A stretch of 4,457 bases of DNA, taken from a virus (lineage: Duplodnaviria > Heunggongvirae > Uroviricota > Caudoviricetes). The stretch's first letter is position 1. Every line of letters begins with the position of its first letter. Location of the stretch: IMG/VR virus record IMGVR_UViG_3300030444_000070. One strand, 5' to 3'. Below the pieces are notes generated by a model. That model made no database searches and was not told the origin of the DNA. It worked only from the letters and a program-made list of their open reading frames with translations. Both the position numbers and the translations under genes were made by a program. Positions 118-4,457 of the stretch are shown here, piece after piece.

Positions 118-273
118 TTACCTTTCAGATTCGTAGGCTGTGAAGACAGTGACCTCCGTCTGGCCGGTTCGGATTCGTACCTCGCAGAGGTCTTTCCTCG
201 TTACCAGTGCCGTCACAATGACGGTTAAACAGATGACGATCAGAGCGATTAACATCGCTTTTTGCTGCTTCAT
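118..273 (-). CDS. hok: Hok/Gef-family type I toxin, 51 aa (MKQQKAMLIALIVICLTVIVTALVTRKDLCEVRIRTGQTEVTVFTAYESER)
   Basis: Own translation of the minus strand: ATG at 273..271, TAA at 120..118. The ORF is below the six-frame track size cutoff. SD-like CAAGGAGAAG lies 6 nt upstream of the ATG, as in R1 hok. The protein has the Hok/Gef hallmarks: single N-terminal TM helix, LVTRKDLCE motif, C-terminal FTAYE. It most resembles Gef/HokC and RelF/HokD from memory; the exact paralog is not assigned. Confidence 0.85.
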   Translation of the reverse strand: MKQQKAMLIALIVICLTVIVTALVTRKDLCEVRIRTGQTEVTVFTAYESER

Positions 274-331
274 AGCCTGCTTCTCCTTGACCTTTTGGTC
301 GGTAAGAGGCTAATCTACGTATGCTAAGCAT
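125..331 (-). CDS. mok: Mok-like overlapping reading frame (modulator of killing), 68 aa, coupling hok translation
   Basis: ORF-track frame 125..331 overlaps hok in a different frame and ends 7 nt before the hok stop, as mok does in hok/sok loci. GAGG lies 9 nt upstream of its ATG. The protein itself is low-complexity, which is typical for Mok. Confidence 0.5.
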   Translation of the reverse strand: MLSIRRLASYRPKGQGEAGYEAAKSDVNRSDRHLFNRHCDGTGNEERPLRGTNPNRPDGGHCLHSLRI

Positions 332-385
332 AGATATGGCCTCAGATTAATGTTAAGCGTCTTGCAGGACGCGTAATGTTATCTG
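321..385 (+). ncRNA. sok: Predicted Sok-like antisense RNA covering the mok translation initiation region
   Basis: Plus-strand promoter candidate TTGACC (287..292), 16-nt spacer, GCTAAT (309..314) inside the mok 5' end puts the start near 321. The transcript would be antisense to the mok SD and start codon. A GC hairpin GCGTC-TTGCAG-GACGC (357..372) followed by a U-rich tract gives a ~64-nt RNA. Boundaries are approximate. Confidence 0.35.
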
Positions 386-440
386 GGGCTTTCTTCTATC
401 TGCTTTTCGGGTCATGCCTGAAGCAGATAGCCTCAAGCAC

Positions 441-480
441 CCGCAACGATTGTATCAATGTCTGGCTTTTTTTCTATAGA
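441..480 (-). promoter_or_regulatory. Predicted hok mRNA promoter (extended -10 TGaTACAAT) and transcript start
   Basis: Minus strand reads CATTGATACAAT (rc of 449..460) with a TG extension. About 7 nt downstream the transcript would begin GGTGCTTGAGGCTATCTGC, which closely resembles the 5' end of R1 hok mRNA (GGCGCTTGAGGCTTTCTGCC, recalled from memory). A 10-bp inverted repeat CTATCTGCTT / AAGCAGATAG (396..405 and 421..430) would form a 5' leader hairpin. Confidence 0.35.
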
Positions 481-2495: not shown

Positions 2496-2512
2496 AAATT
2501 TATTAGAGCAAA
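2496..2512 (-). promoter_or_regulatory. C1-type repressor operator (Op53-like) upstream of kilA
   Basis: Minus-strand 17-mer TTTGCTCTAATAAATTT matches the asymmetric P1 C1 operator consensus ATTGCTCTAATAAATTT (recalled) at 16/17. It lies 70-86 bp upstream of the kilA ATG. A second copy is at 4166..4182. Confidence 0.55.
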
Positions 2513-2554
2513 TTTTTCTGACTCGATCCAGATCGGGTTGGTCGATCTGCTCAG

Positions 2555-2592
2555 AAACCTGCCAGTTTGCTGGCAGGTTTTTTCTTTTGTTA
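2555..2592 (+). terminator. Rho-independent terminator: stem CCTGCCAG / CTGGCAGG, loop TTTG, then TTTTTTCTTTTGT
   Basis: Perfect 8-bp stem (extendable by AAA/TTT pairs) with the T-tract on the plus strand. On the minus strand it is preceded by an A-tract and followed by GTTTCTGAG, so it may also act weakly after ant. The T-tract overlaps the ant stop codon. Confidence 0.6.
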
Positions 2593-3384
2593 ACCTATTG
2601 CTACTGGTTTTAACAAACCAGCATCAAGTAGCTTGCGAGTTAACCACTGCTGGCCTTTACCCGTTAATTGGGGCGTCAGCCGTATCTGGTAGCCATTTTC
2701 ATCATCCAGCACCACTTCTTTCACCGTGAAATACCCGGCGTTAATGTACTGCTGGCGCGGTACGTTTTTGCGCGCACCAAAAGCCATGAGAATGCCGTTC
2801 TGGCGCAACCATGAGAAAAGGGCGTTTTGCTTAAGTCCAACGACCTTTGCAAAGTTCCCGATCAGGATTCCATTAGCCGCTGATACCCGGTCGGCAAAAT
2901 CGACTTTAGGGGCTGCGGCCACCAGCTGTTGTTCCAACTGCATTTTCTGTTCTGCCAACTCGGCAGCCAGGCGTAGAGCGTCTGGTAATGTTTGGGGGAT
3001 CGATGGGGCAGGGGAGTTTGCCTGCTGCAATTCTTCCAGTTTGTCGATCAGCGAACGGCGGACTGCTTTTGACTCGCGCGCGGCGACTCGCAGGGCTTGT
3101 TTGTAGGTCATGGTTATGACAACCATAGGCGTACCGCCACCTGGCGGCACGGTTGCACTTTTTGTGTAACCGTCCTCACCTTCTAATTCGTCGAGTATTT
3201 TTTTGATGAATTTGTTGTTCCGAACCTCTGGTTCCCCACATAACTTACGCGCTTCATTGACCATCTTTAACAGCGTCTGGCTGTCGATTGTGTCTCCAGT
3301 GTTGGAGATAACATTCACAGCTGGTGATGGCGTAGCTGAAGCAACAGATGCTGGTTTTTTAACATTCAAATTATTACTGGTCAT
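2590..3384 (-). CDS. ant2: Antirepressor Ant2, 264 aa: in-frame internal initiation product of the same ORF
   Basis: In-frame ATG at 3384..3382 is preceded by a strong SD, AAGGAGG, with an 8-nt spacer. P1 ant is known to produce Ant1 and Ant2 from two in-frame starts (recalled). Whether both are used here is an inference. Confidence 0.45.
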   Translation of the reverse strand: MTSNNLNVKKPASVASATPSPAVNVISNTGDTIDSQTLLKMVNEARKLCGEPEVRNNKFIKKILDELEGEDGYTKSATVPPGGGTPMVVITMTYKQALRVAARESKAVRRSLIDKLEELQQANSPAPSIPQTLPDALRLAAELAEQKMQLEQQLVAAAPKVDFADRVSAANGILIGNFAKVVGLKQNALFSWLRQNGILMAFGARKNVPRQQYINAGYFTVKEVVLDDENGYQIRLTPQLTGKGQQWLTRKLLDAGLLKPVAIG

Positions 3385-3633
3385 TCTATGTGCCTCCTTT
3401 CTCATTTCTGCTGCCACCGTTGCGTAACGTAGACGTCCTTGTTCAATCAAATAATCCCTGATCTCGGCTATCAGTAGCCTGTTGATCACAGCCTTATCTG
3501 TTCGGGTATAAAAACGTCTGGTTATCATGAAATAGTTGGCAATTGCGCCGGGGATCTCCCGTGTCGGCATACAGGCAGTATGCAGGGCGATCGCTTCGGC
3601 TATGTCATTACGGGTGACGAGAGGTTTTTTCAT
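2590..3633 (-). CDS. ant1: Antirepressor Ant1, 347 aa, with C-terminal KilAC/ANT domain
   Basis: Track ORF. The ATG at 3633 overlaps the stop of the upstream icd-like ORF as ATGA, and AGGGGG lies 4 nt upstream. The C-terminal ~130 aa (LPDALRLAAELAEQK...GKGQQWL) are paralogous to the KilA C-terminus. The middle region loosely resembles Rha-like regulators. Confidence 0.8.
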   Translation of the reverse strand: MKKPLVTRNDIAEAIALHTACMPTREIPGAIANYFMITRRFYTRTDKAVINRLLIAEIRDYLIEQGRLRYATVAAEMRKEAHRMTSNNLNVKKPASVASATPSPAVNVISNTGDTIDSQTLLKMVNEARKLCGEPEVRNNKFIKKILDELEGEDGYTKSATVPPGGGTPMVVITMTYKQALRVAARESKAVRRSLIDKLEELQQANSPAPSIPQTLPDALRLAAELAEQKMQLEQQLVAAAPKVDFADRVSAANGILIGNFAKVVGLKQNALFSWLRQNGILMAFGARKNVPRQQYINAGYFTVKEVVLDDENGYQIRLTPQLTGKGQQWLTRKLLDAGLLKPVAIG

Positions 3634-3851
3634 AAAACCCCCTGAACGTCGGCAGAGAAGGGGAGGTTCCAGTAACTAAGTGAATTGCGCGAGTTAGTTG
3701 AAAAACGGGCAGTAAAAATGCAGGGGCCATCAGGCAATTGAGAGCGTGCTTCGTCTTCTGTTGCTGCGATGACGAAGTGATAGTGGTGTTTTTTGCAGGA
3801 ATAGAAACGCCAGATGAATTCTTGGCGTGCGCAAGGATTGGCATTAACCAT
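3630..3851 (-). CDS. icd: Icd-like small protein, 73 aa, translationally coupled to ant
   Basis: Track ORF (MVNANPCARQEFIWRFYSCKKHHYHF...). GAGG lies 8 nt upstream of the ATG. Its TGA overlaps the ant ATG (ATGA). Size (73 aa) and position between the c4-like region and ant match P1 icd. The protein sequence itself is not independently recognised. Confidence 0.55.
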   Translation of the reverse strand: MVNANPCARQEFIWRFYSCKKHHYHFVIAATEDEARSQLPDGPCIFTARFSTNSRNSLSYWNLPFSADVQGVL

Positions 3852-3907
3852 AGTTACGGCCTCACAATCAGGTTTAACAACCTGCTACCCGCTGCTAAAC
3901 AGGTGGC

Positions 3908-3990
3908 AGGACGTGACGGGGTTAGCAGACTGGCGATTGTGAAACCAGCAGGCCGAAGCCTCCCCATCACGCCCCACCATAATTTGGGCG
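3908..3990 (-). ncRNA. c4: Predicted c4-like antisense repressor RNA
   Basis: On the minus strand, UCACAAUC (rc of 3935..3942) and CUGCUAAC (rc of 3922..3929) lie 6 nt apart. Each is complementary to two target pairs on the same transcript: upstream GUUUAGCAG (rc 4061..4069) and GAUUGUG (rc 4047..4053), and downstream GUUUAGCAG (rc 3892..3900) and GAUUGUGA (rc 3862..3869), the last overlapping the icd SD GUGAGG. Local hairpins place the first motif in a loop. The RNA ends are not determinable from sequence; boundaries are approximate. Confidence 0.35.
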
Positions 3991-4098
3991 TAACGCGGTT
4001 TTACGGACACAAAAATACCGCAATATCGGATATCTGCGGCTGTCCGCACAATCATTCAGGCTGCTAAACCCGGTCGCAGAATTTGCTACGACGGCGAA

Positions 4099-4127
4099 AC
4101 TATAAGCCTGAACGATTAAAAGGTCAA
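4099..4127 (-). promoter_or_regulatory. Sigma70 promoter for the c4-icd-ant operon (P51-like): TTGACC, 17 nt, TATAGT
   Basis: Minus strand: -35 TTGACC (rc of 4122..4127), exact 17-nt spacer, -10 TATAGT (rc of 4099..4104). Predicted start near 4092, upstream of both upstream target motifs. Confidence 0.5.
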
Positions 4128-4165
4128 TATGATGCAAAAAGATAGCATTCGCGACTTAAAAATAC

Positions 4166-4182
4166 AAATTTATTAGAGCAGA
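4166..4182 (-). promoter_or_regulatory. C1-type repressor operator (Op51-like) upstream of the immunity-I operon promoter
   Basis: Minus-strand 17-mer TCTGCTCTAATAAATTT matches the recalled P1 C1 operator consensus at 15/17. It is nearly identical to the 2496..2512 copy, and the flanks are also conserved (~27/33 over 2483..2515 versus 4153..4185). Confidence 0.5.
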
Positions 4183-4457
4183 TTAGTGTCGTGCAATAGA
4201 TATATTATTTGTGATGAAAAATAATGCAGAGGGATATTGTAACTTTAAGATGGATATCAATAGTCGATACATAAATTAAGTTAGCAATAAACTATTAACT
4301 TAAGAAATAATGCAGATGGTGAACTTGTCTCTGACTTTTCAGCTATACACAATAAGTTAGGGATAGCTTATAAAGGTAATGACTCCAACTTATTGATAGT
4401 GTTTTATGTTCAGATAATGCCCGATGACCTTGTCATGCAGCTCCACCGATTTTGAGA

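What the first reader, a model, noticed from the sequence alone, without database searches (positions are those of the whole stretch)
3860..4070. c4-type antisense RNA with two loop motifs and duplicated target sites, one pair masking the icd RBS
Seen directly: UCACAAUC and CUGCUAAC in the middle of the leader are complementary to GAUUGUG and GUUUAGCAG both ~120 nt upstream and at the icd SD. This reproduces the P1 immunity-I logic in which processed c4 RNA blocks icd translation and, through coupling, ant. The CUGCUAAC pairing has a 1-nt bulge.
Basis: partly seen in the sequence, partly recalled or inferred. Interest (0 to 1): 0.55.

Follow-up and report, generated by a model that had tools for sequence, protein, structure and literature searches.

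The report
Phage P7 c4 antisense immunity RNA
This is the textbook c4 antisense RNA switch of phage P7/P1, which blocks the ribosome-binding site of icd and so keeps the antirepressor Ant off; it is correctly read but already known.

Summary
The window is a P7-type P1-like phage-plasmid segment (immI, kilA, repL; 99.9% identical to many E. coli plasmids). The c4 RNA, its four target sites and the leader are base-for-base identical to phage P7. Rfam finds C4 (69.6 bits, gathering 45) and the a1/b1 target element (54.6 bits, gathering 46.7). The 77-nt RNA folds strongly (z -5.7), with b' in a hairpin loop and a' in a single-stranded junction. b2 overlaps the icd Shine-Dalgarno, and icd and ant1 overlap by ATGA. 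Across 43 specificity classes from about 130 homologous loci, a' has an exact complement of at least 7 nt in its own leader and downstream region in 43/43 (cross-locus about 2%). b' matches its own downstream site in 37/43 (cross 2.5%). Corrections: a' is not in a hairpin loop, and the canonical a pairing is 7 bp without a bulge. Beyond the finding: the upstream a1/b1 leader is homologous to Salmonella Gifsy-1 IsrK and to P4 seqA. It carries a conserved terminator-like hairpin, so it may be an active regulatory RNA. That role is untested in P1/P7.

The parts
4166..4182 (-). C1 repressor operator Op(c4)/Op51, which controls the upstream promoter of the c4-icd-ant operon
   Evidence: The P7 annotation maps here. 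It matches the operator consensus with 2 mismatches; 2 hits in the window against 0.03 expected.
4099..4127 (-). Sigma-70 promoter P1c4 (former P51b), TTGACC-17-TATAGT; predicted TSS about 4092
   Evidence: Found by the promoter scan with 10/12 matches. It coincides with the promoter annotated in P1.
4073..4092 (-). Leader hairpin I (GUCGUAG/CUGCGAC), the 5' end of the IsrK/c4-a1b1-type leader
   Evidence: Rfam c4-a1b1 and isrK alignments. 6 of 7 pairs show compensatory changes across 43 loci.
4057..4072 (-). Leader hairpin II, which displays target a1 (GUUUAGCAG 4069..4061; 7-nt core 4067..4061) in its loop
   Evidence: a1 covaries with a' in 43/43 classes.
4047..4053 (-). Target b1 (GAUUGUG), single-stranded, complementary to 7 of the 8 nt of b'
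   Evidence: The own-leader match is at least 7 nt in 24/43 classes against 1.3% for cross pairs.
4011..4039 (-). Terminator-like hairpin (CCGCA(G)AUAU-CCG-AUAUUGCGG) plus UAUUUUU, between b1 and c4. Its 5' arm is shared with a competing hairpin (4048..4035).
   Evidence: The Rfam isrK alignment is full length at 43.7 bits, E 2.8e-7. A run of at least 5 U is present in 43/43 classes. The simple terminator scan did not call it.
3902..3978 (-). Mature c4 antisense RNA (77 nt)
   Evidence: Identical to the P7 c4 misc_RNA. Rfam C4 scores 69.6 bits against a gathering score of 45. MFE is -44.9 kcal/mol, z -5.73. Structure covariation is shown.
3935..3942 (-). b' recognition motif UCACAAUC in the loop of hairpin 2
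3921..3928 (-). a' recognition motif CUGCUAA(C) in the single-stranded junction; the last C is in the closing stem
3892..3900 (-). Target a2 (GUUUAGCAG; 7-nt core 3898..3892), starting 2 nt after the c4 3' end
   Evidence: 43/43 classes have an exact own match.
3860..3869 (-). Target b2 (GAUUGUGA 3869..3862) overlapping the icd Shine-Dalgarno GAGG (3863..3860)
   Evidence: The SD starts inside b2 in 28 of the 37 classes that have an exact b2.
3630..3851 (-). icd (73 aa), the cell-division inhibitor whose translation is the direct target of c4
   Evidence: ORF. 72/73 residues identical to P7 Icd and 70/73 to P1 Icd.
2590..3633 (-). ant1 (347 aa; ant2 starts in the same frame at 3384), the antirepressor. 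Its AUG overlaps the icd stop (AUGA at 3633..3630).
   Evidence: ORF. Pfam ANT/KilAC hit at 5e-31. P7 annotation. Junction sequence.

Best explanation
This is the immI immunity module of a P7-type P1-like phage-plasmid. The operon leader-c4-icd-ant1/2 is transcribed on the minus strand from promoter P1c4 (TSS about 4092) and from a second, C1-controlled promoter further upstream. A 77-nt RNA, c4 (3978..3902), is cut out of the leader. It folds into a long closing stem with two hairpins. The 8-nt motif b' sits in the hairpin-2 loop and the 7-nt motif a' sits in the adjoining single-stranded junction. c4 pairs in trans with a2 and b2 on the same operon's mRNA. Because b2 overlaps the icd Shine-Dalgarno, icd is not translated. 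ant1 starts at an AUGA overlap with the icd stop, so Ant is not made and the C1 repressor stays active. The a'/b' sequences set immunity specificity, and this element carries the P7 specificity. Steps shown here: sequence identity to P7, RNA family membership, the fold, the placement of the motifs, the b2/SD overlap, the AUGA junction, and three-way covariation. Steps taken from published P1/P7 work rather than tested here: processing to 77 nt, repression in vivo, and polarity on ant.
For: The window is 99.2% identical to P7 over 3600-4200, and all 5 SNPs lie outside c4, its targets and the leader terminator. The P7 and P1 GenBank records annotate c4, a1, b1, a2, b2, the promoters and Op(c4) at the matching positions. 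Rfam C4 scores 69.6 bits and c4-a1b1 scores 54.6 bits, both above gathering. The fold has z -5.73, with b' in a loop and a' unpaired. Helices are 94.4% paired across 43 loci against about 41% when slid, with compensatory changes. In P1, P7, D6, SJ46, 673R5 and JL22 the a and b motifs change together with both target pairs while the flanks stay invariant. Across 43 classes, a' matches its own leader in 43/43 and its own downstream region in 43/43, against about 2% for cross pairs. b' matches its own downstream site in 37/43 against 2.5% for cross pairs. The b2/SD overlap is conserved. P1 motifs pair much more weakly with these targets (-1.9 to -6.5 kcal/mol) than the cognate motifs do (-7.2 to -9.4), which fits P1/P7 heteroimmunity. 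The context is right: a C1 operator, a promoter, and icd, ant1, kilA and repL.
Against: Nothing in the sequence argues against it. There are limits. No expression or processing data exist for this particular element. The a2-b2-RBS segment has no significant fold of its own (z -0.75), so target accessibility is assumed rather than shown.
Confidence: 0.96

Rival explanations
1. The upstream pair a1/b1 is not a passive duplicate. It is the core of a short, terminated leader RNA (about 82 nt, 4092..4011) homologous to Salmonella Gifsy-1 IsrK. This RNA would act in trans as a decoy (anti-antisense) that titrates c4 and so switches icd/ant on. This adds to the main explanation rather than replacing it.
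For: Rfam isrK matches 4092..4011 over its full length (43.7 bits, E 2.8e-7), starting at the predicted P1c4 TSS. In Gifsy-1 the isrK gene (79.3 bits) overlaps a c4-a1b1 hit (48.1 bits) and is followed 25 nt later by a C4 hit (69 bits), then by a2/b2, an SD and the antirepressor anrP. The same tandem occurs in Stx phages, mEp460, a Yersinia phage, F1055, D6 and P4. In Gifsy-1, short IsrK in trans raised antirepressor translation about 140-fold. Mutations at pairs of positions (IsrK 18-31 and positions 159-173) were tested there, and by my coordinate mapping those fall in the a1 region and the a' region (PMC4825925). A leader U-run is present in 43/43 classes.
Against: In the P1/P7 group the isrK score is below gathering (43.7 against 50), the U-run is only 5 long, and the simple terminator scan did not call the hairpin. 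The leader fold is weak (z -1.8). No short leader RNA is known to me from P1/P7 work. The P1 GenBank record calls a1/b1 only 'putative' targets.
Confidence: 0.35
2. a1/b1 act in cis as an attenuator sensor, as seqA does in phage P4. c4 pairing with a1/b1 on the nascent leader would favour the terminator hairpin (4039..4018) over a competing hairpin (4048..4035). High c4 levels would then shut down transcription of c4-icd-ant, including from a superinfecting genome.
For: P4 has the same module: seqA is hit by isrK and c4-a1b1, and CI RNA is hit by Rfam C4 at 74.9 bits. As summarised in PMC4825925, P4 CI RNA causes premature termination by pairing with seqA and seqC. Two mutually exclusive hairpins share the terminator's 5' arm, and b1 abuts or overlaps the competitor. 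In silico, blocking b1 raises the terminator probability in 31/43 classes with 2 falling (median +0.145; this window 0.57 to 0.79).
Against: A control block in leader hairpin I also raised the terminator probability in 26/43 classes (median +0.068), so the effect is only partly specific. Equilibrium folding ignores co-transcriptional kinetics. The competing hairpin is not in one alignment register, so covariation could not be tested for it. Blocking a1 alone had no positive effect.
Confidence: 0.3
3. c4 is a small protein-coding gene, and the complementarities are incidental. This was the historical reading: old records annotate a c4 CDS, and the Gifsy-1 paper calls the region orf45.
For: Records X15639 and RCS47 annotate c4 as a CDS or 'transcriptional regulator', and JL22 has a hypothetical protein there. 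A 56-aa ORF spans 3885-4055. The frame from the AUG inside the invariant 15-mer stays open in 25/43 classes.
Against: That frame closes after 8-45 codons in the P1/P7, Gifsy and several other groups, and in P7 it ends 36 nt before the icd AUG. The variation pattern is RNA-like, with compensatory stem changes and covarying recognition motifs. The ORF has no Pfam hit. [quoted passage not shown]
Confidence: 0.01

Closest known systems
c4 antisense RNA and immI operon of phages P7 and P1 (Citron & Schuster 1990, 1992; Rfam RF01695 and RF03163)
   Same: Everything tested. The 77-nt RNA, a', b', a1, b1, a2, b2, the leader terminator region and the SD context are identical to P7. The promoters, C1 operator, icd and ant1/2 have the same layout.
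   Different: There are only 5 SNPs against P7 in 3600-4200, all outside the RNA and its targets. Compared with P1, a' differs at 2 nt and b' at 2 nt, with matching changes in all four targets. That is the heteroimmunity difference.
Gifsy-1 IsrK, STnc1160/orf45 and anrP locus of Salmonella (Hershko-Shalev et al. 2016, PMC4825925; Rfam RF01394)
   Same: Same order of parts: a leader with a1/b1 and a terminator (IsrK), then a C4-family RNA about 25 nt downstream, then a2/b2 over an SD, then an antirepressor. The recognition motifs covary in the same way (a' ACGCCAA with UUGGCGU; b' CGGUGAU with AUCACCG).
   Different: There is no icd, and b2 masks the RBS of the antirepressor gene itself. The antirepressor has an ORF6N domain rather than KilAC. 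The leader is an established stand-alone Hfq-binding sRNA that activates in trans. In P7 the isrK score is sub-threshold and no such RNA has been shown.
Phage P4 immunity: seqA, CI RNA (seqB) and seqC
   Same: Homologous RNAs. P4 CI scores 74.9 bits on Rfam C4, and seqA scores 60.8 bits on isrK and 44.1 bits on c4-a1b1. A processed antisense RNA has complementary sites both upstream and downstream on its own transcript.
   Different: As summarised in PMC4825925, the P4 output is premature transcription termination of the replication operon, not masking of an RBS upstream of an antirepressor.

Membership tests
C4 antisense RNA (Rfam RF01695; P1/P7 c4) | Covariance-model score at or above the curated gathering score | tested here: met
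   69.6 bits against 45, E 1.2e-12, model positions 1-87 of 87, at 3899-3984 (-).
C4 antisense RNA (Rfam RF01695; P1/P7 c4) | Long closing stem with two internal hairpins, b' in the hairpin-2 loop and a' single-stranded next to it | tested here: met
   MFE -44.9 kcal/mol, z -5.73. 94.4% of cells are paired across 43 loci against about 41% when slid, with compensatory changes in hairpin 1 (4/4 pairs) and in the main stem.
P1/P7 immI antisense control | a' and b' complementary to a2/b2 downstream, with b2 covering the ribosome-binding site of the first ORF | tested here: met
   a2 is at 3900..3892. b2 is at 3869..3862 and overlaps GAGG 3863..3860, 8 nt before the icd AUG. This is conserved: own a2 in 43/43 classes, own b2 in 37/43, and the SD starts inside b2 in 28/37.
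P1/P7 immI antisense control | A second target pair a1/b1 in the leader upstream of c4 (Rfam RF03163) | tested here: met
   c4-a1b1 scores 54.6 bits against 46.7 at 4053-4105 (-). a1 is at 4069..4061 and b1 at 4053..4047.
P1/P7 immI antisense control | Operon context: C1 operator and promoters upstream, then c4, then icd overlapping ant1/ant2 | tested here: met
   Operator at 4166-4182. Promoter at 4127..4099. icd at 3630-3851, ant1 at 2590-3633 with an AUGA overlap.
P1/P7 immI antisense control | Specificity set by a'/b' with compensatory target changes (heteroimmunity) | tested here: met
   Among 7 P1-like phages there are 2 a-classes and 4 b-classes, each matched in all targets. The wider set has 18 junction classes and 31 loop classes. 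Heterologous P1 motifs pair weakly with these targets.
P1/P7 immI antisense control | Processing of a precursor to a 77-nt RNA and repression of Ant synthesis in vivo | not testable with these tools
   Only the invariant processing-site sequence AUUAU|GGUGGGGCGU can be seen; it was the exact-match anchor used to collect the loci, so its invariance in them is by construction. Function is taken from the literature (titles cited).
IsrK Hfq-binding sRNA (Rfam RF01394) | Covariance-model score at or above the gathering score | tested here: not met
   43.7 bits against 50 in the window, although full length with E 2.8e-7. D6 scores 46.5. The threshold is met in the Gifsy-1, Stx, Yersinia, F1055, ECO95 and P4 loci (53.8-79.3 bits). 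So this is a homologue, but it is not filed as a member.
IsrK Hfq-binding sRNA (Rfam RF01394) | Ends at a Rho-independent terminator that is partly read through | tested here: inconclusive
   A 9-bp hairpin with one bulge plus UAUUUUU lies at 4039..4011. The consensus scan did not call it. The equilibrium terminator probability is 0.57. A U-run is conserved in 43/43 classes.
IsrK Hfq-binding sRNA (Rfam RF01394) | Binds Hfq and acts in trans to activate antirepressor translation | not testable with these tools
   Shown only for Gifsy-1 (PMC4825925).

The most novel reading that the evidence does not exclude
The 'duplicated' upstream target pair is an active third RNA player. Transcripts from P1c4 that stop at the conserved leader terminator (about 4011) would give an IsrK/seqA-type RNA of about 82 nt carrying a1/b1. 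That RNA would titrate c4, and c4 pairing to a1/b1 on nascent RNA would in turn tune termination. P1/P7 immI, Gifsy-1 IsrK-STnc1160-AnrP and P4 seqA-CI-seqC would then be one ancient, modular three-RNA immunity switch with at least 43 interchangeable specificities. As a corollary, Pfam PF10554 'Phage_ASH' would largely be a translation of this RNA module. The homology itself is close to certain. The probability given here is for the functional claim in P1/P7.
Probability: 0.35. Interest if true: 0.5.

Novelty: already known. Interest (0 to 1): 0.13.

Why it matters
As a finding it is a correct rediscovery of a classic system, the first phage repressor shown to be an antisense RNA. For annotation it matters because most of the related phage records I opened leave c4 and its targets unannotated or call them proteins; PLSDB plasmid gene tables hold no RNA genes, so the plasmid hits are uninformative on this. 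The a'/b' type predicts which P1-like phage-plasmids are mutually immune, and many of these carry resistance genes. The wider value lies in what came out on the way. The long-unexplained a1/b1 sites belong to the same RNA family as IsrK and P4 seqA. Those two systems have measured but different functions, which makes the role of a1/b1 in P1/P7 directly testable.

Tried and rejected
(1) Column-wise covariation counting of the intermolecular pairs was dropped. The recognition motifs sit one register apart between the P1 group and the other groups in alignment A3, so I used a register-free own-versus-cross test instead.
(2) The first version of the terminator thermodynamic test was discarded. The duplex-defined b1 window ran into the competing hairpin, and three cases gave P > 1. 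The strict version is only suggestive because a control block also shifts the equilibrium.
(3) The first automatic b2/SD count was confounded by ATGs inside b2 and was redone.
(4) The simple terminator scan does not call the leader hairpin.
(5) The primary P1 papers and the P1 and D6 genome papers are not held.
(6) The protein-coding reading of c4 was rejected.
(7) Weak Rfam hits (ceN48, ctRNA_p42d, and a second sok hit on the plus strand) were treated as noise.

Full report
WHAT THE WINDOW IS. All long ORFs lie on the minus strand: a 73-aa ORF, then 347 aa (KilAC/ANT domain), 266 aa (KilA-N + KilAC), 281 aa, and a Hok toxin. Positions 3600-4200 are 99.2% identical to phage P7 and 95% to P1. 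The whole window up to 4374 is 99.9% identical to many E. coli P1-like phage-plasmids of 85-130 kb. The P7 and P1 GenBank records annotate c4, icd, ant1/ant2 and the C1 operator at matching positions. The P1 record also annotates a1, b1, a2, b2 and two promoters. The window is therefore the immI-kilA-repL segment of a P7-type punavirus.

CHECK OF THE OBSERVATION. On the minus-strand RNA the motifs lie as follows:
- a1 GUUUAGCAG at 4069..4061
- b1 GAUUGUG at 4053..4047
- b' UCACAAUC at 3942..3935
- a' CUGCUAAC at 3928..3921
- a2 GUUUAGCAG at 3900..3892
- b2 GAUUGUGA at 3869..3862, overlapping the SD GAGG (3863..3860), with the icd AUG at 3851

GTTTAGCAG occurs twice against 0.04 expected (0/200 shuffles reach 2). 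GATTGTG occurs four times against 0.6 expected, and three of the four are in this module. Two details need correcting. The 77-nt RNA folds at -44.9 kcal/mol (z -5.73), with b' filling the hairpin-2 loop but a' in the single-stranded junction, not in a loop. The contiguous a pairing is 7 bp (CUGCUAA:UUAGCAG), the length annotated in P1. The 'bulge' arises only if C3921 is added, and that base is paired in the closing stem.

IDENTITY. Rfam gives C4 (RF01695) at 69.6 bits against a gathering score of 45, at 3899-3984(-). It gives c4-a1b1 (RF03163) at 54.6 bits against 46.7, at 4053-4105(-). Against P7 there are five SNPs in 3600-4200 (positions 3637, 3795, 4097, 4136, 4152). None lies in c4, any target site or the leader hairpins. 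Window Icd matches P7 Icd at 72/73 residues. The promoter scan recovers TTGACC-17-TATAGT at 4127..4099, which is the annotated P1c4/P51b promoter, and this puts the TSS near 4092. The C1 operator is at 4166-4182. icd and ant1 overlap by AUGA at 3633..3630.

Test 1: the motifs lie inside the mature RNA (3978..3902).
Test 2: the complementarity is conserved. Among P7, P1, D6, SJ46, 673R5 and JL22 almost everything in the leader and c4 is invariant except the motifs. There are two a-types (CUGCUAA, CUGUCAA) and four b-types (UCACAAUC, UCACUAAC, UCGUAAGU, UCAUUCGU). Each is matched in a1/a2 or b1/b2, and a- and b-types reassort. JL22, for example, combines P1-type a with P7-type b.

In distant loci (Stx2a_1447, mEp460, a Yersinia phage, Salmonella F1055, ECO95, Gifsy-1) the recognition sequences are entirely different, yet each still matches its own targets. 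I then collected 120 more loci using the invariant 15-mer at the c4 5' end. Together these gave 85 unique modules and 43 distinct a'/b' combinations, made up of 18 junction classes and 31 loop classes.

An exact complement of at least 7 nt was found at these rates:
- a' against its own leader: 43/43 (cross-locus about 2%)
- a' against its own downstream region: 43/43 (cross-locus about 2%)
- b' against its own downstream region: 37/43 (cross-locus 2.5%)
- b' against its own leader: 24/43 (cross-locus 1.3%)

b1 often carries a wobble or a mismatch. In 28 of the 37 classes with an exact b2, the SD 4-mer starts inside b2. In most of the rest the SD starts 1 nt after b2, or b2 covers or abuts the AUG. 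Intramolecular helices are 94.4% paired against about 41% when slid, with compensatory changes in leader hairpin I, c4 hairpin 1 and the closing stem. P1's motifs pair much more weakly with this window's targets (-1.9 to -6.5 kcal/mol) than the cognate motifs do (-7.2 to -9.4).

MECHANISM. The best explanation is the established one. A processed c4 RNA pairs through a' and b' with a2/b2 and occludes the icd RBS. Because ant1 is translationally coupled to icd, the antirepressor is not made. From my recollection of Biere et al. 1992, untranslated icd also causes polarity on ant. Anatomy, family membership and covariation are shown here. Processing and in vivo repression are inferred from the literature (Citron & Schuster 1990 and 1992; Riedel 1993; Heinrich 1994 and 1995). 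These are cited, but the papers themselves are not held.

BEYOND THE FINDING: WHAT a1/b1 MAY BE. Rfam isrK (RF01394) matches 4092..4011 over its full length at 43.7 bits (below the gathering score of 50; E 2.8e-7). This match overlaps c4-a1b1 and includes a hairpin plus UAUUUUU between b1 and c4.

In Gifsy-1 the isrK gene (79.3 bits) overlaps a c4-a1b1 hit (48.1 bits). It is followed 25 nt later by a C4 hit (69 bits), then by a2/b2, an SD and the antirepressor-like gene. All other loci examined, including P4, show the same tandem. In P4, seqA is hit by isrK and c4-a1b1, and the CI RNA is hit by C4 at 74.9 bits.

Hershko-Shalev et al. 2016 describe IsrK, a processed RNA of about 80 nt (STnc1160, 'orf45') and AnrP without mentioning P1 c4. 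They showed that short IsrK activates antirepressor translation in trans. Later papers list IsrK and c4 as separate sRNAs. In the library I could search, the identity of IsrK with the a1/b1 leader is therefore not stated. I cannot exclude that it is stated elsewhere.

Two readings of a1/b1 follow. One is a decoy RNA, as in Gifsy-1. The other is a c4-sensing attenuator, as with P4 seqA. A run of at least 5 U is present in 43/43 classes. A competing hairpin shares the terminator's 5' arm. Blocking b1 in silico raises the terminator probability in 31/43 classes (this window 0.57 to 0.79). A control block also raises it in 26/43, so this result is only suggestive.

VERDICT. The finding is real, correctly interpreted and already known. 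It is P7's c4, base for base. Interest as a discovery is low. The IsrK/seqA connection and the breadth of specificity classes are the only parts that go beyond textbook knowledge.

Noticed in passing
window 4011-4092 (-); L012 (Gifsy-1) 34131-34329 (-); L133 (P4) 8420-8705 (-): The a1/b1 leader of P1/P7 is homologous to the Salmonella sRNA IsrK and to P4 seqA. Gifsy-1 STnc1160/'orf45' and P4 CI RNA are both C4-family RNAs. The searchable literature treats IsrK and c4 as unrelated.
   Followed up: yes
L007 1425-1716 (+); L133 8329-8521 (-): Pfam PF10554 'Phage_ASH' matches the conceptual translation of the IsrK+C4 RNA stretch (5.8e-11) and the obsolete P4 'cI protein' ORF that overlaps the CI RNA (4.3e-16). 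The real P4 epsilon protein belongs to PF25738. The 'Ash domain' of Stx-phage 'Rha/Ash' proteins, and the use of PF10554 as an epsilon marker, may therefore rest on a translated RNA gene. The window's own ORF does not hit the family.
   Followed up: partly
L007 and L008, 1077-2228 (+): Stx2a_1447 and mEp460 annotate a single 383-aa 'antirepressor/Rha' CDS that runs straight through the IsrK and C4 genes. The conserved a2/b2-SD-AUG suggests the true start is near 1677.
   Followed up: partly
window 3881-3910 (-); A3 columns 220-260: The c4 3' arm (CCUGCCACC) is complementary to a downstream element (GGUAGCAGG; in other groups CUCACCACC:GGUGGUGAG). This gives an alternative hairpin that would display a2 in its loop and that excludes the c4 closing stem. 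It is 89.7% paired against 30-58% when slid, and three adjacent pairs change on both sides as one event. Its function is unknown.
   Followed up: partly
loci L001-L132: Recognition modules reassort freely: 18 a' classes and 31 b' classes occur in 43 combinations among 85 unique modules. This implies many mutually heteroimmune specificities built by recombination between the two motifs.
   Followed up: yes
window 118-442 (-): A complete hok/sok type I toxin-antitoxin locus lies downstream of repL. Rfam sok scores 113.9 bits at 268-442, and a 51-aa Hok ORF lies at 118-273 (Pfam HOK_GEF 2.4e-22). It is annotated hokD in matching plasmids.
   Followed up: partly
window 4375-4457: Similarity to P1-like elements stops at 4374. 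The last 83 bases are an IS1 end (100% identical to IS1F), cut by the window edge. It sits where P7 has the upf50.5 lipoprotein gene and P1 has sim.
   Followed up: partly
window 2496-2512 (-): A second C1 operator (1 mismatch to the consensus) lies upstream of kilA-repL. This is presumably Op53, which controls the lytic replicon.
   Followed up: no
L005 (673R5) b1 region: In phage 673R5, b1 carries a 2-nt insertion (ACG-GG-AAUG) while b2 is perfect. Another locus with the same b' (L124) has an intact b1. The upstream site therefore tolerates damage that the RBS site does not.
   Followed up: no
window 2553-2590 (+): There is a weak Rfam ctRNA_p42d hit (21.1 bits, E 0.42) in the ant1-kilA intergenic region. 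It is probably just a terminator-like hairpin.
   Followed up: no
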